Origin: a virus
Lineage: Duplodnaviria; Caudoviricetes
Length of the DNA stretch: 38,397 nt
Strand: one strand, 5' to 3'
IMG/VR virus record: IMGVR_UViG_3300014656_000065
Span: 1 to 38,397 of that record
Positions 1,517-33,690 of this stretch are shown here, piece after piece (position 1 is the stretch's first letter; every line of letters begins with the position of its first letter). The translations under genes and the position numbers were made by a program. The notes under the pieces were generated by a model. That model searched no databases. It had not been told where the DNA came from and saw only the letters and a list, made by a program, of their open reading frames with translations.

Positions 1517-2031
1517 TGGTTCTCCTTTACGAATTTCGCGTAATAGGCACAGAGGATGGCATCATATTTATCCTGCTCATCCTCCGCTTCCTTCTCTGTC
1601 TTGAATCCTGGATTCGGTAGGCCGGCGAGCCTACAAGCAGAGTCGATCATGTCGAGCTTCTTCGCCGCGCCCGTTCCATAGATCGTTTTTTTCAACGTTG
1701 TGTTAGGCACGCCGCAGTACGGGAAAAGCATGTCCTCGCCGAGGAGCATTATCTGGCTTACGAGCCAGCCTACGCCCCGGTAGGTCTTGACATTACGGGC
1801 GTAGGGCTCCTCGTATACGAGCATGCCGATTTCCGTACAGCCGCAACCATAGCGGTCGTTCCGCACGTCCTCTACCACCCCCGAGAGCATGTTCCTGAAC
1901 TGCTGGATCTTCTGACCAGGCTCACCCTTTAATTTCTGAGAGAAGAAGTGTACGAGGGTCGATTCATCGAGCACGGCGATTCCCGTCTTGCTCGTAGTGA
2001 AGCCCAGATCGGCGCCGAGATAGATGCTCAT
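1513..2031 (-). CDS. ruvC: RuvC-like Holliday junction resolvase
   Basis: YLGADLGFTTSKTGIAV (catalytic D), LVYEEP (E), LKKTIYGTGAAKK, DKYDAILCA (D..D). Confidence 0.85.
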   Translation of the reverse strand: MSIYLGADLGFTTSKTGIAVLDESTLVHFFSQKLKGEPGQKIQQFRNMLSGVVEDVRNDRYGCGCTEIGMLVYEEPYARNVKTYRGVGWLVSQIMLLGEDMLFPYCGVPNTTLKKTIYGTGAAKKLDMIDSACRLAGLPNPGFKTEKEAEDEQDKYDAILCAYYAKFVKENQ

Positions 2032-3020
2032 AACGCAAGCACCTCCTGCGCTTTCAGGGGTGCGAGCCGCTTCTCTGCTAGTCTGATATAGTCCTCGTTT
2101 AGTTCTATCCCGATGTAGTGCCGCCTTGCCCGCAGTGCCACCTTGGCGACTGTGCCTGAACCCATAAACGGGTCGAGGACGGTATCGCCCTCTGCGCTAC
2201 CCGCCATCAGGCACGGCTCCACAAGCGTCTCGGGGAACACGGCGAAATGGGCTTCAGGGTATGGATGAGTCGGGATAGTCCAGACCGTGCGGCGGTTGCG
2301 CTTACCCTTTGCAATTAATGCCACGCCGCCGCTTGGGACGGTTCCCATCTGTGCATCGTCGAACCTAGGCCGATTCGTCCCGCTTATCCAGCGGGACGCG
2401 ATGTGTTCCGGTGTGGTTGCCGCATCAAGCACCGCCTCCTGATCGTAGTAGTACCGACTGCTTTTGCTCATCAGGAACACGTACTCGTGCGCCTTCGTGG
2501 GCCTGTCTGTGACCGACTCGGGCATCGGGTTCGGCTTCGACCATATTATGTCCGAGCGCAGATACCACCCGTCCTGCTGTAGTGCGAACGCGACACGCCA
2601 CGGGATGCCGATGAGGTCTTTGGGTTTGAGGTTGCACAACTCTAAATCAAATAGCCTGTTTCCACCGGGCATGGCTGGCTGAGATTTTCTGTTTTTTGCC
2701 AGGTTGCCCGTCTCGTCGCGTTTGGCATTTAATGTGCTATTTGTAATGCCCCCGCTCCCCTTGATCGTTGCCGCATACGAATCTCCCAAATTCAGCCACA
2801 GAGTCCCGTCCGGCCTCAGAACCCGCCTGACCTCGGCAAATATCGCCACCATCTTCGCCACGTACTGCTCCGGTGTCGGTTCAAGGCCGAGCTGGCCCGC
2901 GCACCCGTAATCCCTCAAGCCCCAATAAGGCGGCGAGGTGATGCAGCACTGGGCGCATTCGTCGGGTAGGCCCCGAAGAACCTCAAGCGAATCGCCGTGA
3001 TGGATTACGTCCAACCTCAT
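2028..3020 (-). CDS. DNA methyltransferase, N4-C/N6-A beta class
   Basis: Motif IV TSPPY near the N-terminus, motif I VLDPFMGSGT near the C-terminus, HFAVFPE; ATG at 3020 preceded by AGGAG. Confidence 0.93.
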   Translation of the reverse strand: MRLDVIHHGDSLEVLRGLPDECAQCCITSPPYWGLRDYGCAGQLGLEPTPEQYVAKMVAIFAEVRRVLRPDGTLWLNLGDSYAATIKGSGGITNSTLNAKRDETGNLAKNRKSQPAMPGGNRLFDLELCNLKPKDLIGIPWRVAFALQQDGWYLRSDIIWSKPNPMPESVTDRPTKAHEYVFLMSKSSRYYYDQEAVLDAATTPEHIASRWISGTNRPRFDDAQMGTVPSGGVALIAKGKRNRRTVWTIPTHPYPEAHFAVFPETLVEPCLMAGSAEGDTVLDPFMGSGTVAKVALRARRHYIGIELNEDYIRLAEKRLAPLKAQEVLAL

Positions 3021-3031
3021 CTCACTCCTAA

Positions 3032-3095
3032 GCCCCGGCCCGGGTTGAACCACAGGGCTGCGGGCCGAAGCGGCGCTCCTGTGCCGGACCGGGGC
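3032..3095 (-). repeat. Intergenic inverted repeat: 12-bp GC stem, 40-nt interior
   Basis: gccccggcccgg (3032-3043) / ccggaccggggc (3084-3095); the single mismatch is a G-U pair on the - strand; inner stem cacagg/cctgtg. Confidence 0.8.
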
Positions 3096-7325: not shown

Positions 7326-7535
7326 TCAGCCCGTGCTCCTTCCCGAGCCCTCGCTCCCCTTTGTCCCTTTCGCGAACCATGCTTCGATATCGGCGACGCT
7401 GTAGTAGATGCCGCTGCCCTCGGGCTTGCTCCACCTCGGGCCTTTGCCGAGATATCGCCAGTTGCTCAGCGTCTTCTGTTTGATGCCGTACAGCTGTTCT
7501 ACCTCTGCGGCGGTGAGCATCTTGCGCGGGTTCAT
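7326..7535 (-). CDS. AlpA/excisionase-like HTH protein
   Basis: MLTAAEVEQLYGIKQKTLSNWRYLGKGPRWSK...IYYSVADIEAW; ATG at 7535 overlaps the upstream stop. Confidence 0.85.
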   Translation of the reverse strand: MNPRKMLTAAEVEQLYGIKQKTLSNWRYLGKGPRWSKPEGSGIYYSVADIEAWFAKGTKGSEGSGRSTG

Positions 7536-7780
7536 ATCACCATCCTCATCTGCTTCGTGTCGTTCAGGTGATACTTCCATCCCGCTATCCGGTCGTGTAT
7601 GCACTGGATCTCGTACCCCTCCTGATTGCGTAGTTCGCTGACTCTATTGCGGAACGTGTACCCGCATAGTTCTATGAGCTGGTCGAGATAGGCGTATCCG
7701 TCGCCTGATCGGTTCGCTTCACGGAGCAGCCAGAGGATGCGCCGCTTCTGTGTCCAGCCGTGGAATCCGAGCGGGTACAT
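7532..7780 (-). CDS. Winged-HTH domain protein
   Basis: TQKRRILWLL...FRNRVSELRNQEGYEI...YHL is a common phage wHTH pattern. Confidence 0.75.
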   Translation of the reverse strand: MYPLGFHGWTQKRRILWLLREANRSGDGYAYLDQLIELCGYTFRNRVSELRNQEGYEIQCIHDRIAGWKYHLNDTKQMRMVI

Positions 7781-7781
7781 A

Positions 7782-7868
7782 TCAAACCGCCCTTAGCAGT
7801 TGTGCGCCCCAGTACAGGAACGAGAAGATGATTAGCGCCCACGCGACCTTACTTCCGAGCTTCTTCAT
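7782..7868 (-). CDS. 28-aa membrane peptide
   Basis: MKKLGSKVAWALIIFSFLYWGAQLLRAV with GGAGG RBS; this is the C-terminal end of the 197-aa track ORF. Confidence 0.55.
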   Translation of the reverse strand: MKKLGSKVAWALIIFSFLYWGAQLLRAV

Positions 7869-8007
7869 GACCAGCCCTCCTCCATCGGTACGGCTCCCGT
7901 GACAGCCTGAGAGCCTTGTTTCGTTGCCTGGCGAATCGATCCAGCATGCCAACGCGCTCTGTGACCTCGCCCGTCTTGAGGTGATACTTCTCATAGATAG
8001 GAACCAT
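7849..8007 (-). CDS. 52-aa hypothetical protein (below the ORF-track cutoff)
   Basis: AGGAGG RBS then MVPIYEKYHLKTGEVTERVGMLDRFARQRNKALRLSREPYRWRRAGHEEARK. Confidence 0.55.
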   Translation of the reverse strand: MVPIYEKYHLKTGEVTERVGMLDRFARQRNKALRLSREPYRWRRAGHEEARK

Positions 8008-8026
8008 GCGCCCTCCTGTCGAAAAG

Positions 8027-8370
8027 CCCGCCCCGGGACTACTACCGCTCTTATCTGCGGGGATGAGGATACGGACGAGTTACCCGGGGCAGGACAAAAC
8101 ATAATGGCCGGCACCTGAGACCTGAGAGGACCTGCTGTCGATAGGGGTAAAGTGATGGCCGGTGCCGGCCGGGGATCAGCAGAGGCGGGCGGGCTACTTA
8201 ACAGTCTGACTGAGTTTTGCTTCAACACAATGTGACTACCCACCCGCCTCCGTCCTTTCGTTCCGGGCCGCACCTCGCCACCGGCGTTTACACGCATTTC
8301 GAAAACTGCCGCTATGGCTATGGTGTTGCCCCTGTTGTAAAGCGCCGACCTGCCGATTGCCGCACAGGTC
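8027..8370 (-). ncRNA. Putative structured RNA region: four 65-69 nt long-loop hairpins plus one small hairpin
   Basis: Stems 8027-8037/8083-8093, 8106-8115/8161-8170, 8182-8193/8239-8250, 8282-8292/8336-8347; interiors 45, 45, 45 and 43 nt; small hairpin gacctg/caggtc 8347-8370. The inverted repeats are certain; expression as RNA is inferred. Confidence 0.5.
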
Positions 8371-8430
8371 AGCAAACGAATCTATATCAGACTGCCGCTT
8401 GCCCTCGCGCCTCTATGGGTCGCTATGTTA

Positions 8431-8670
8431 TTATTGGGACGCGGCTGCCTCATAATCTCCCTCAAACAGACTCGCGGCCTTGATATGGAACTTCTCCCAC
8501 AGCCGCGTTATCATCTGCCCTGTCACGTCACGCTTGCCGCTTTCTATCTGCGAGATATAGCTTTGGTTGTACCCAAGTATCTCGGCGAACTCGGCCATGG
8601 TCAGGCCAAGGAACTTCCGTAGCTCCGCGACCCTCATGTTGCTGACGTTTATTTCATTTGATGCTTCCAT
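8431..8670 (-). CDS. XRE-family HTH regulator (Cro/repressor-like)
   Basis: ELRKFLGLTMAEFAEILGYNQSYISQIESGKR; the ATG at 8679 overlaps the -10 box, so 8670 is preferred. Confidence 0.9.
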   Translation of the reverse strand: MEASNEINVSNMRVAELRKFLGLTMAEFAEILGYNQSYISQIESGKRDVTGQMITRLWEKFHIKAASLFEGDYEAAASQ

Positions 8671-8677
8671 GTGCGGC

Positions 8678-8707
8678 ATTAAATCACAACCCCGGGATAC
8701 CTGTCAA
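8678..8707 (-). promoter_or_regulatory. Sigma70-type leftward early promoter
   Basis: TTGACA (8707-8702), 18-bp spacer, extended TGnTTTAAT (-10 at 8683-8678). Confidence 0.65.
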
Positions 8708-8798
8708 GTAAATTATTACATGTACTAGGGCGCAGACGAAAATAGTCAGGCACGAGCCTTGCACTATCCCTGTCGTACCCAACACGAGGAGGCCGGAC

Positions 8799-9014
8799 AT
8801 GACTACATATGAGCGTCTACAGCATCAGGAACAGGAGCTACGGCAGCTCGGGCAGGTTCTCGCGGATAGACTATCGAGCAGCGAAATGCAACGGCTCAGG
8901 GCGATATGCGACGCACTCACAGCAGAGCGCAGCAGGATCAGGGAGAGCATAGCGCCGGCGTGGGAGAAGGTCTGCAAGGCGAGCATGGAAGATTCCCTGC
9001 CGGTTACGTGGTAA
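8799..9014 (+). CDS. Hypothetical helical protein, divergent from the XRE gene
   Basis: GAGGAGG RBS upstream; 71 aa. Confidence 0.65.
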   Translation: MTTYERLQHQEQELRQLGQVLADRLSSSEMQRLRAICDALTAERSRIRESIAPAWEKVCKASMEDSLPVTW

Positions 9015-9054: not shown

Positions 9055-9102
9055 ATGATACCGTTCCTTTTCATACTCGACCTGTTCTGGTGGCTCAGAT
9101 AG
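9055..9102 (+). CDS. 15-aa hydrophobic micropeptide MIPFLFILDLFWWLR
   Basis: Full Shine-Dalgarno AAAGGAGGTGA (9040-9050) just upstream of the ATG; terminator-like hairpin downstream. Confidence 0.5.
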   Translation: MIPFLFILDLFWWLR

Positions 9103-9122: not shown

Positions 9123-9145
9123 AAAGTGGAGGGGCTTCACTTTTG
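9123..9145 (+). terminator. Putative intrinsic terminator
   Basis: aaagtggag-ggg-cttcacttt stem-loop ending in a T run. Confidence 0.45.
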
Positions 9146-9157
9146 TAATAATCCCTG

Positions 9158-9186: not shown

Positions 9187-9223
9187 ATATTACAGAACAA
9201 CGGGCGTTAACAGGGAGGTAGGT

Positions 9224-9559
9224 ATGAGACGGATAATCGGGATCGTATTTCTCGCGGGGCTTCTGTCGTCCTGCGGTGATACCAGCTACCGCGCAGATGT
9301 CACGGCACACCCCAGCGGGGCAGAGGTAACGATAATCATTAATGACGGGGAGGGCGGTACGTGCTTCGGGGATACGAGCTTCACCTGCCCTGACGGCGGG
9401 TGCCTTGCCGTATCAGCGAGCGGGGCTGGCGAAGGCGTATACCTTCAGGTATGGAAGGTCAGAGACGGCGGGCTCAATGGACTCTTTTTCGGTGATGAAG
9501 AATTCGTCGGACATGATTCAGCGCTCGGCTCCGGGGCGACCGCTGAAGTTTGCTGGTAA
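9224..9559 (+). CDS. Putative lipoprotein
   Basis: MRRIIGIVFLAGLLSSC: basic N-terminus, hydrophobic core, lipobox Cys; GGGAGGT RBS. Confidence 0.75.
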   Translation: MRRIIGIVFLAGLLSSCGDTSYRADVTAHPSGAEVTIIINDGEGGTCFGDTSFTCPDGGCLAVSASGAGEGVYLQVWKVRDGGLNGLFFGDEEFVGHDSALGSGATAEVCW

Positions 9560-11786: not shown

Positions 11787-12262
11787 TTCTTATCCTTTCG
11801 TGTTAACGCTACAATCAACTTCAGAATTTCAAGGATGATCCCGGCGAGGATTTTCCAGTTCGATACCTGGTCAGTGCCAGCCTGCTTATTGATCTCTTTA
11901 TTCGTCTTCTGTACGCCCGCTGCCAGTGCGGAGCCGGTTGCGGTTAGAACGGCAGCCGGTATCGCTACCTGCCAGGCTGTACCCAGCAGCATCGCGCCGC
12001 CCGCTATCGTCAGGGCCGTACCTCCTACAACGCCCAGCATCTTCAGGGCCCTTGCAGCACCGCGGACAATGGCGTTCCGTTGAGGGCCGAGGCGGGGTAT
12101 CTCGTAGTTCAGGTACTTCATCTCATCGGGCGTCATACCGATCATGATAGACCGCCTGTACCCGTCCGGCTGGATAGGCCCCTGCACGAGGACCTTATCA
12201 TCCGCGCCGCCTGTCTCTATGACCATCCGGCCGTGGATCCAGTTGTCTATCTCTTTGCTCAT
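11783..12262 (-). CDS. Membrane protein, possibly holin-like or a lysis accessory
   Basis: Start MSKEIDNW coupled to the MTase stop with GGAGG; 2-3 hydrophobic helices and a basic C-terminus (TRKDKK). Confidence 0.6.
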
Positions 12263-13542
12263 ACTGCAAGCACCTCCTGCTTCTGTGCCTGTAGCCGGTT
12301 CGCTGCTATCTCGCAATATGCCTCGTTCATCTCTATACCAATCGCTGACCTGCCCTCGTTCTGCGCCGCTATCAGGGTCGAGCCTGAACCGGCGAACGGG
12401 TCGAGTACGGTGCCGCCCGTGGGTGTTTTTGTGAGGCGGCATAGATACTGCATGAGGGCGAGCGGCTTGACGGTGGGGTGATGGTTCTGCGTCGGCAAGT
12501 TCATTGTGCGCCGTGACCCATCGGAGCCAATGTGTTCCTTATTCATTTGGTGCGCTGGTGCCATCCGCTGCACCATCCCCTCGCACCCCGCATTCCGCTC
12601 TGCCCTGCTCGCTTTGGCGCAGTAGAAGAATCGGGCTGCGGAGCCGGTGTCGCCGTAACTAATTTCTTCTCGACCTAACATCCCAAGCGAATGCAGAAAC
12701 TGTGGATGGTGCTCTCTCTGGCGGGTACAGTCCTTGCCTGAACTCGTCACCGGGAACAGCCCCACCACCTCATCGCTCCCGTCGTGTATCAGGTTCGCAG
12801 GGAAGCGGCCGGCGTGCGTTGTGGGCGTCCGCTTGACGTTTGCGGCCAGCATTCCCCCGGCGTCCCATGTTTGCCCCGTCTCGGCCCGGAATCCATTTAC
12901 TGTAATCTTATCCGTCCCCACCCGCCCCCCGTCCACGTTCAGACCGGCGACCCCATGCGTCAGGGCGTTGTTAGCAAAGGTTCCGTCGCAAGGATTCATC
13001 GCCAGTATTATCGGCTCCCATGCGGGTTTTAATGCTGTGCCCCATCCGTTCCAGGTCTCGGCCTCGGGGGTTGCGGGGGCGGTTGTCGCCGCATCCGACC
13101 CGAAACGATAGGCCTTCTCGCCGCTTTGCCCGACAACGCTCGGCCTCGTTTCACTCCGTGTCTTACTATCGGTCCTTACTCTCTCCGCACCCGCCGCCTT
13201 GTCAATCGCCTTGCTGATATCGTGCGATTTCGGGAAGCCCTGCGCGTACACCCACATGAGACAGTCCCGAATCTCAAACCCCGCGTCCTCGATTGCGCAA
13301 GTGAGCCGGTGAAAGGTGCGAGTCCCGCCGAACGAGAGGCACATCGCACCGGGTTTGCAGGTGGCTAGTATCAGTTGCCAGAAGTGAACACCCGGCACGC
13401 CCCGATCCCAATCCTTACCCATGAACGTCAAACCATATGGCGGGTCGGTGATGACCGTATCCATACCGGACAGGGACGGGAGTATATCCCGGCAGTCACC
13501 GTGATAGATCGTGATGCCGTTGTGGGAGTAGTAGGGACTCAC
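12259..13542 (-). CDS. DNA methyltransferase, N6-A/N4-C beta class
   Basis: [58 protein letters not shown]. Confidence 0.93.
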
Positions 13543-32919: not shown

Positions 32920-33690
32920 CTACCACACCTTAAAAACAGTCGAGGTGACTCCGACCATCGTCGAACCAGCGTAGAGGCGGTTGTATAAATACCCAGCCGC
33001 AACGCTGCCCTCAATCGGGATCTGATATGTAAAATGATTATCAGGATAATCGCTCACGTCTACGGCAAGCGTATCAATCCCAGTAACAGGGACAACGCCA
33101 TCAGACCAGAACACACCAAACTTATTTATAGTCGAGTCCGCAGCCGACATGCCGAACATCACCTCAACCGCGAAGTCAGTCGTACCAGCATCCCACTCCA
33201 CGTCGAGCAGCAACGCCCGGCACCCGCTCACAGCAGAGCCAACACTGTTTGTAGTCGTAGCAGTCGGAGCAGACGTAGACCACTCCGAGATCAGCACAGC
33301 CTGCGAAGTCGTGACGGGTAAGGGAGACGTAGGATTAGGCGGGGCGTAAGACTTGTGCGCCGCCGCCACATCTCGAGATAGAAACTCATTCCAGTCGACC
33401 AGCACAGCGGTCGCAGAAGAACGATCCACACCGATCGCATCGCATAATATCGTCGGCTCCCAGGTCATCCCCGCCAGTACCATCACCGTATCGAGCGCCA
33501 CCGAATCCAGGTACAGCGTCACCTCGATGTCAGCCGAATACGCCAGGATCGAAAACTGCCGCACAGCAACACCCGAATTAAACGTCACGGTGTAGTCAGT
33601 CCCGCCAGCCACACGGTAATTAACACCAGCCAACACCCCCGCCGGCCATATCACCAGCACCGCCATCAATACCAAAATCATCCTACGCAT
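32920..33690 (-). CDS. Secreted beta-rich hypothetical protein
   Basis: Signal peptide MRRMILVLMAVLVIWPAGVLA; two beta-rich segments joined by a Pro/Thr linker. Confidence 0.7.
   Translation of the reverse strand: MRRMILVLMAVLVIWPAGVLAGVNYRVAGGTDYTVTFNSGVAVRQFSILAYSADIEVTLYLDSVALDTVMVLAGMTWEPTILCDAIGVDRSSATAVLVDWNEFLSRDVAAAHKSYAPPNPTSPLPVTTSQAVLISEWSTSAPTATTTNSVGSAVSGCRALLLDVEWDAGTTDFAVEVMFGMSAADSTINKFGVFWSDGVVPVTGIDTLAVDVSDYPDNHFTYQIPIEGSVAAGYLYNRLYAGSTMVGVTSTVFKVW

What the first reader, a model, noticed from the sequence alone, without database searches (positions are those of the whole stretch)
8027..8370. Array of equal-sized, GC-clamped hairpins with unrelated ~45-nt loops: candidate phage small-RNA (antisense/guide) cassette
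Seen: directly downstream of the XRE gene, four back-to-back units of 65-69 nt, each closed by its own 10-12 bp stem, with interiors of 45, 45, 45 and 43 nt. The units share geometry but not sequence, so repeat and CRISPR finders would miss them. The C/A mismatches in stems 1 and 3 become G-U pairs on the - strand, which is the direction of the early transcript. There are no U tracts, so they are not terminators. Read on the + strand, every interior contains an ATG and one looks like a full translation start (ataggggtaaagtgATGgcc, ~8141-8160), so the - strand loops would display anti-SD/anti-AUG sequence. The ATG count alone is weak evidence. Inference: an early-expressed array processed into small RNAs whose loops base-pair with host (e.g. 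defence) mRNA start regions, or act as guides or decoys. I do not recognise a described family with this layout, but cannot exclude antitermination (put/nut-like) or C4-like RNAs.
Basis: partly seen in the sequence, partly recalled or inferred. Interest (0 to 1): 0.78.

Follow-up and report, generated by a model that had tools for sequence, protein, structure and literature searches.

The report
Modular RNA hairpin cassette after cro
An uncultured temperate phage carries, between its cro-like regulator gene and its excision and recombination genes, four evenly spaced stretches of 65-69 bases that are predicted to fold into end-closed RNA hairpins of no catalogued family, and these likely control read-through into the phage's own early genes rather than silencing host messages.

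Summary
The array is real, but one unit was drawn wrongly. Three clamped hairpins (8027-8093, 8106-8170, 8183-8251) are beyond chance: 0 of 2000 shuffles hold three such helices. The fourth is better read as a 67-nt irregular rod at 8265-8331, not 8282-8347. With it the units are 67/65/69/67 nt and the linkers 12/12/13 nt. Two further hairpins lie upstream (8347-8403). A related phage contig (about 88% identical) keeps the folds: one double change, plus G.U changes that fit only the minus strand. The rod and unit 2 share clamp sequence (6 of 2000 shuffles), suggesting duplication. Nothing supports host-mRNA targeting: ATG and SD-ATG content is at chance level, and no targets were found in the phage or in four candidate-host genomes (host uncertain). 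There is no Rfam, TIGR, put or CRISPR-repeat match. Best reading (0.38): an RNA control cassette in the early transcript that likely limits read-through from the XRE gene into xis and the recombination genes, working like P4 CI RNA. Processing and function are untested. The scan noted a similar array behind cro in another prophage (e1-6041697).

The parts
8678..8707 (-). Predicted promoter of the XRE gene and cassette: TTGACA (8707-8702), 18 nt, TG, TTTAAT (8683-8678). The ATG at 8670 lies 7 nt downstream, so the mRNA is likely leaderless.
   Evidence: Sequence. Both hexamers are kept in related locus L053 while the spacer differs. Not listed by the consensus scan, because the second hexamer lacks A at position 2.
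8431..8679 (-). XRE helix-turn-helix gene (cro-like position, no peptidase domain)
   Evidence: Pfam HTH_3 E 2.7e-10; PHROG 8
8371..8403 (-). Hairpin H0, G.U-rich, fits the minus strand
   Evidence: z -2.84; 8371-8401 unchanged in relative contig of run X8, 0 of 31
8347..8370 (-). Hairpin H1, abutting H0
   Evidence: z -2.73. X8 has a double change at pair 8351/8366 and a change at 8369 that gives G.U only on minus; X7's loose end shows the same, read by hand.
8265..8331 (-). Unit 4, corrected: 67-nt irregular rod of four helices, clamp GGGC/GCCC
   Evidence: Pair probability 0.98-0.99; z -2.88; 6 of 8 change events in X8 fall at unpaired places, p 0.06
8282..8347 (-).
   Evidence: z -0.31; probability about 0 in context
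8183..8251 (-). Unit 3: 69 nt, 13-15-bp clamp, 8-nt 3' bulge
   Evidence: z -6.75 on minus; 8214-8281 unchanged in X8 (0 of 68) and 8221-8281 unchanged in X5
8106..8170 (-). Unit 2: 65 nt, 10-bp clamp, most open interior, anti-SD-like run CCCCU; followed by a U-rich linker
   Evidence: z -3.26; clamp resembles that of the rod
8027..8093 (-). Unit 1: 67 nt, 11-bp clamp, partly paired interior; followed by CUUUU
   Evidence: z -3.86 on minus, -3.91 on plus
8010..8027 (-). Small hairpin predicted to cover the SD of the 52-aa ORF
   Evidence: Probability 0.55-0.91 by span; not better than shuffles alone (z 0.33)
7326..8007 (-). First downstream genes: 52-aa ORF (7849-8007), 28-aa hydrophobic peptide (7782-7868), 82-aa protein (7532-7780), xis-like gene (7326-7535); then PD-(D/E)XK nuclease, AAA ATPase, RecT

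Best explanation
The 420-base gap behind the XRE gene holds a cassette of predicted RNA hairpin modules that likely sets how much of the transcript from the XRE promoter reads on into the excision and recombination genes, as a likely RNA-based lysogeny or immunity control of the phage itself. Shown: the gap is non-coding, tiled by hairpins and structurally kept in a relative. Inferred: it is transcribed from the promoter before XRE. The end-paired units would be cut out at the 12-13-nt single-stranded linkers by host RNases. Released or nascent unit 3 would pair with two complementary sites in the same transcript, one upstream in H0 (about 8386-8396) and one downstream beside the SD of the 52-aa ORF (8016-8033). 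That pairing, with the U-rich tails after units 2 and 1, would stop or uncouple read-through, as P4 CI RNA does.
For: Location: between the only repressor-like gene found among the ORFs scanned and xis/RecT, on one strand, with no promoter called inside the gap. A lysogen that makes XRE must keep xis off (inference). Regular geometry: 67/65/69/67 nt, linkers 12/12/13. Structure is kept in a relative, with minus-strand G.U signatures. The rod and U2 share a clamp with different tops (5 of 1000 and 6 of 2000 shuffles). Unit 3 has complements on both sides, the P4 seqA/CI/seqC topology (PMC4825925, passage): with H0, p 0.005-0.03; with 8016-8033, 18-nt arms, p 0.035. 8214-8281 is invariant in X8 (Fisher p 3e-5), which suggests sequence-specific pairing or binding.
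Against: The cross-pairings are the best of 52 pairs tested and do not survive correction. They need strong stems to open, and the equilibrium fold does not choose them. No canonical terminator was found on the minus strand, and two of four units lack U tails. No motif is shared by all four units or linkers, so no common processing signal is seen. The comparative data are two partial contigs, possibly of one study, and do not cover U1, U2 or the 3' half of U3. The invariant stretch could be recent recombination.
Confidence: 0.38

Rival explanations
1. A purely cis-acting structured leader, never cut: the hairpins hide the untranslated RNA from Rho or RNases or act as pause and weak termination sites, and H0-H1 may be a put-like antiterminator.
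For: H0-H1 is a double hairpin about 270 nt downstream of the predicted start site, the distance given for HK022 putR (PMC9378689). Linkers are only 12-13 nt. Units 1 and 2 have U-rich tails. An earlier scan note read a similar array after cro as a terminator stack (e1-6041697, unchecked).
Against: No sequence likeness to the HK022 cro-cII interval (243 and 292 of 300 shuffles score as well). H0-H1 is 57 nt, against about 70 for put. Equal unit size and a duplicated clamp are not needed for such a job.
Confidence: 0.3
2. One reading: a precursor cut into small RNAs that act on host or rival-phage mRNAs by pairing, or that decoy RNA-binding defence proteins.
For: Equal end-clamped units like processed TIGR stem-loop units (PMC12045711). 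Clamp kept and top replaced between the rod and U2. The complement of U2 looks like a generic SD-ATG, and several of its 3-mismatch hits sit at ORF starts in G001-G004. The cassette lies in the first transcript.
Against: ATG in all loops occurs in 13% of shuffles and an SD-ATG in one loop in 18.5%. The U2 seed gives 22 hits against 33 control and none better than 2 mismatches. The U1 seed gives 13 against 3, but 12 of 13 lie deep inside open frames. The rod exposes only about 13 nt. No other contig of run X1 was laid on the units at 80% likeness.
Confidence: 0.2
3. Guide array for a protein (TIGR-like or CRISPR-like), or CRISPR-repeat mimic (Racr).
For: Tandem stem-loop layout and crRNA-like size.
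Against: No shared box C/box D layout for any 3-mer/2-mer pair on either strand. No Nop, Cas or IS110 domain among 46 ORFs scanned by Pfam and 50 by PHROGs. No Rfam CRISPR-repeat match inside the array.
Confidence: 0.05
4. Relic or chance: decayed inverted repeats or coding sequence without present function.
For: A 197-codon open frame crosses the gap. Single helices of this score occur in 10% of shuffles. No homologous array was found elsewhere.
Against: 0 of 2000 shuffles reach three helices. The frame has non-coding codon use (-0.13 against +0.05 to +0.25 for six neighbouring genes) and is shifted by indels in X8. H1 shows compensation.
Confidence: 0.07

Closest known systems
Phage P4 CI RNA immunity leader (seqA / CI / seqC) and kin such as Gifsy-1 IsrK; P1/P7 C4 and N15 CA RNA (these last two recalled)
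   Same: Untranslated, structured stretch of an early transcript ahead of small ORFs and lytic genes; a unit with complements upstream and downstream in the same RNA (weak here).
   Different: Here it follows a translated XRE gene and consists of four equal end-clamped modules. No Rfam match. The complementarity is not significant after correction.
HK022 putR antiterminator RNA
   Same: Position after cro, about 270 nt from the start site; H0-H1 is a pair of abutting hairpins.
   Different: No sequence likeness; shorter; put is a single element, not followed by four modules.
TIGR stem-loop arrays (tigRNA)
   Same: Tandem units, each closed by its own variable palindrome.
   Different: No box C/D motifs, no paired 8-12-nt spacers, no Tas/Nop protein found; interiors partly paired.
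Tandem intrinsic terminators / lambda tR1-nutR region (recalled)
   Same: GC-rich stems after cro; two have U-rich tails.
   Different: Interiors of 43-45 nt instead of 3-8; two units lack U tails; no boxA/boxB or N-like gene identified.

Membership tests
TIGR stem-loop array | [quoted passage not shown] | tested here: not met
   No shared layout for any 3-mer/2-mer pair, three unit sets, both strands; definition from PMC12045711 passages
TIGR stem-loop array | Adjacent Nop-domain Tas protein | tested here: not met
   None among 46 ORFs (Pfam) and 50 ORFs (PHROGs); neighbouring genes are 28-82 aa. A divergent Tas elsewhere could be missed.
TIGR stem-loop array | Tandem units each closed by a variable palindrome | tested here: met
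P4 CI / C4-type immunity RNA | Match to a curated model (C4 and kin; their presence in Rfam is recalled) | tested here: not met
   No Rfam hit at gathering score or at E up to 10 inside the array
P4 CI / C4-type immunity RNA | Complementary target sites upstream and downstream in the same transcript | tested here: inconclusive
   U3 with H0 p 0.005-0.03, with 8016-8033 p 0.035, best of 52 pairs
P4 CI / C4-type immunity RNA | Processed from the leader and causes premature termination | not testable with these tools
   Needs RNA data
HK022 put | About 70-nt double hairpin downstream of an early promoter | tested here: inconclusive
   H0-H1 is a 57-nt double hairpin about 270 nt from the predicted start
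HK022 put | Sequence similarity to putL/putR | tested here: not met
   Compared with the HK022 cro-cII interval only (putR not annotated in the record, putL not compared): scores at shuffle level
HK022 put | Binds the RNA polymerase beta' zinc-binding domain and suppresses termination | not testable with these tools
   Needs in vitro transcription
Racr (CRISPR-repeat mimic) | Sequence and structure similarity to a CRISPR repeat | tested here: not met
   The only CRISPR-DR hit is E 8.8 at 8660-8690, outside the array; definition from PMC10651486 passages. The host's own repeats are unknown.
Intrinsic terminator | Short GC hairpin (loop 3-8) followed by a U tract | tested here: not met
   None on the minus strand; U-rich tails only after U1 and U2

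The most novel reading that the evidence does not exclude
Temperate phages carry behind cro a polycistronic small-RNA cassette: end-clamped 65-70-nt modules that arise by duplication, keep their clamp, swap their tops, and are cut out to act in trans on rival phages, host messages or RNA-binding defence proteins, with no dedicated protein of their own.
Probability: 0.2. Interest if true: 0.85.

Novelty: new variant of a known kind. Interest (0 to 1): 0.55.

Why it matters
RNA control of early phage operons is known from a few enterobacterial phages (P4 CI, HK022 put). A regularly spaced four-module cassette with a duplicated clamp and exchanged tops is a layout that nine literature searches and Rfam did not return, and the scan noted a similar one in an unrelated prophage. 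If the layout is general, it is a missed class of phage regulatory RNA that repeat finders cannot see, because the units share shape, not sequence. The 700-base promoter-to-xis stretch is small enough to test directly in a reporter or by in vitro transcription.

Tried and rejected
Homologue hunts that gave no second full array: IMG/VR scans by AAA protein, wHTH alignment, nuclease alignment, 71-aa protein (83; one weak hit, L172) and DNA patterns (16, 47, 110; all 28 hits lie in open frames of 127 codons or more and none in an array). One metagenome scan gave 44 loci, of which only the window itself is homologous. GenBank phages by blastn gave only E 1-4 hits. The GTDB scan found one close relative, L053, which begins just before the XRE gene. 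The helix-cluster detector run over 1.13 Mb of integrase loci gave 16 looser clusters; the 4 I inspected were repeats or coding sequence, and the other 12 were not inspected. Over 26 further loci (358 kb, mostly around the nuclease family in G001's phylum) it gave none. Only 8 XRE-like downstream regions could be scored, too few to judge generality. No RNA holder was listed. Inversion (inverton) reading: no strand-changing joints in 8 runs, contigs only. attC reading: one RYYYAAC box in U3 without a partner box (motif recalled; read by eye). Single-stranded DNA hairpins: weaker than RNA folds, and the G.U changes point to RNA. Coding reading of the 197-codon frame rejected. A U1-U3 duplication is not supported (816 of 2000 shuffles). 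In one search two of the 57 start positions were a few bases off, though their windows still held the start region. The helix script can store a lower score for a helix that passes the threshold; counts are not affected. No tRNA to mark attP.

Full report
Setting. The window is one 38,397-base contig of a temperate tailed phage, with integrase, portal, major head, tape measure, RecT, PD-(D/E)XK nuclease and AAA ATPase genes. It occurs in groundwater metagenome runs. The finding lies in the 420-base gap between an XRE gene (8431-8679, minus) and a same-strand run of a 52-aa ORF, a 28-aa hydrophobic peptide, an 82-aa protein, a xis-like gene and the recombination genes. The closest relative with DNA in hand is L053, a 3.7-kb contig in a Planctomycetota MAG (78% integrase identity). 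It starts just before XRE. No other genome among 25 of that class carries this integrase at E 1e-60, so the host is uncertain.

Observation. Units 1-3 are real. They belong to the only cluster of three or more long-loop helices on either strand. Of 2000 shuffles of the gap none holds three and 2 hold two. Folded alone on the minus strand they give z -3.86, -3.26 and -6.75. A rod at 8265-8331 has probability 0.98-0.99. With the rod, units measure 67, 65, 69 and 67 nt with linkers of 12, 12 and 13 nt, which is more regular than first described. Two more hairpins, H0 (8371-8403) and H1 (8347-8370), abut each other upstream, and a small hairpin is predicted over the SD of the 52-aa ORF. The interiors are partly paired. 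U1 and U2 fold equally well on both strands; U3, H0 and H1 favour minus.

Transcription. TTGACA-N18-TTTAAT with a TG extension lies 7 nt before the ATG at 8670. Both hexamers are kept in L053. The consensus scan did not call it, because the second hexamer lacks A at position 2, and it called nothing inside the gap. I infer that the cassette is the 3' continuation of a probably leaderless XRE mRNA. A 197-codon frame across the gap has non-coding codon use and is broken by indels in a relative.

Comparative evidence. It is thin but informative. One contig in run X8 covers 8214-8492 with 23 substitutions and 12 gap letters. By feature: 0 changes in 8214-8281 (68 nt; Fisher p 3e-5 against the rest; also unchanged over 8221-8281 in X5, same study code). 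There are 0 changes in H0, 8 in H1, and 3 substitutions plus 6 gap letters in 8293-8335. In H1 the pair 8351/8366 changes on both sides, and the change at 8369 leaves a G.U pair only on the minus strand. A loose end in X7 shows the same and turns 8353/8364 into a WC pair, whereas X8 breaks that pair and appears to re-pair one base over (hand reading). In the rod, 6 of 8 change events fall at unpaired places, counting the A-run loss as unpaired (p 0.06). The changes at 8323-8324 and 8282 appear by hand to re-pair in a shifted register. X7's change at 8343 breaks it unless compensated out of view. The rod and U2 share clamp sequence: 5 of 1000 dinucleotide shuffles and 6 of 2000 structure-keeping shuffles score as well, the best of six unit pairs. 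This suggests duplication with replacement of the top. No second complete array was found (see Tried and rejected).

Targets. The antisense idea found no support. All four interiors hold a plus-strand ATG in 13% of shuffles, and one SD-ATG look-alike appears in 18.5%. Against 57 own start regions the minus-strand loops are matched by 15-96 of 100 shuffles. In G001-G004 blastn gives at best E 0.1. The U2 seed has 22 hits against 33 control; several lie at ORF starts, as any SD-ATG string would (which re-read 13 of the 22 with a pattern shifted by one base). The U1 seed has 13 hits against 3 control, but 12 of 13 lie deep in open frames. Within the leader, U3 is complementary to H0 and to 8016-8033 beside the downstream SD, with p 0.005-0.035 among 52 pairs, which is not significant after correction.

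Mechanism. Shown: a non-coding, hairpin-tiled, structurally conserved stretch with regular modules. Inferred: transcription from the XRE promoter, cutting at linkers, and control of read-through. XRE is the only repressor-like gene found among the ORFs scanned, and a motif near its promoter recurs at the integrase promoter, so a lysogen needs a way to make XRE without xis. I therefore favour an RNA control cassette working like the P4 CI leader (0.38). An uncut cis leader or put-like element gets 0.30, trans-acting RNAs against host or rival phage 0.20, relic 0.07 and protein guide 0.05.

Known systems. Rfam gives nothing at gathering score over the window or at E up to 10 in the array. TIGR stem-loop arrays need box C/D motifs and a Tas protein (PMC12045711, passages); both tests failed. 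putR is an about 70-nt double hairpin about 270 nt from PR (PMC9378689, passages; PMC8632103, passages); H0-H1 matches in place and outline, not in sequence. CI is cut from an untranslated transcript and pairs with sites on both sides (PMC4825925, passage); this is inconclusive here. Racrs mimic CRISPR repeats (PMC10651486, passages); not met. Nine searches (listings only, apart from the five papers named) returned no description of this layout. The library lacks most subscription papers, and I read no supplements; the TIGR array table may bear on the membership test. Lambda nutR/tR1, C4, N15 CA, attC and Cuckoo RNAs are recalled, not looked up.

Verdict. A real, corrected and uncatalogued RNA cassette. 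It works most likely as a control of the phage's early operon and is a member of none of the families tested. Interest 0.55: the architecture is unusual and testable, but homologues are few, the host is unknown and there are no RNA data.

Noticed in passing
window 8714-8720, 9144-9150, 9188-9194; L053 41, 464, 508: A 7-mer (TATTACA or its complement) flanks both the XRE promoter and the integrase-side promoter; L053 has TATCACA at three matching places. Likely operators of the XRE protein that changed together.
   Followed up: partly
window 8799-9014 and 9055-9102 (+): A 71-aa helical ORF of no family (86% identical in L053) and a 15-codon Trp/Phe-rich peptide ORF with a strong SD, kept as 14 codons in L053 (read by eye), lie divergent from XRE where a CI repressor would be expected.
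   Followed up: partly
window 9224-9559 (+): A lipoprotein-like gene between the promoter and the integrase is absent from L053; possible superinfection-exclusion moron.
   Followed up: no
window 8688-8777: In run X6 a contig replaces these 88 bases by 77 others, so the promoter/operator stretch differs between relatives.
   Followed up: no
window 7782-7868 (-): A 28-aa peptide with a hydrophobic stretch overlaps the end of the 52-aa ORF; it resembles a small membrane peptide or kil-like product.
   Followed up: no
window 8299-8312 and 33549-33562: A 14-base exact match, same strand, between the rod and a coding gene; antisense to the opposite-strand frame there. Probably chance.
   Followed up: partly
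window 8013-8022, 8136-8143, 8297-8304 (-): The word UCGA(A/C)A sits in the apex of the rod, the apex of U2 and the loop of the SD hairpin; the rod apex holds an 8-base self-complementary word that is unchanged in X8 but for the length of its A run. Not tested against chance.
   Followed up: no
window 2028-3053 and 12259-13542: Two DNA methyltransferase genes of PHROG 67 in one small phage.
   Followed up: no
L054 11333-11622: Many direct and inverted copies of a 9-10-base repeat in an integrase-linked element of a Desulfovibrionaceae MAG; looks like an origin or iteron region.
   Followed up: no
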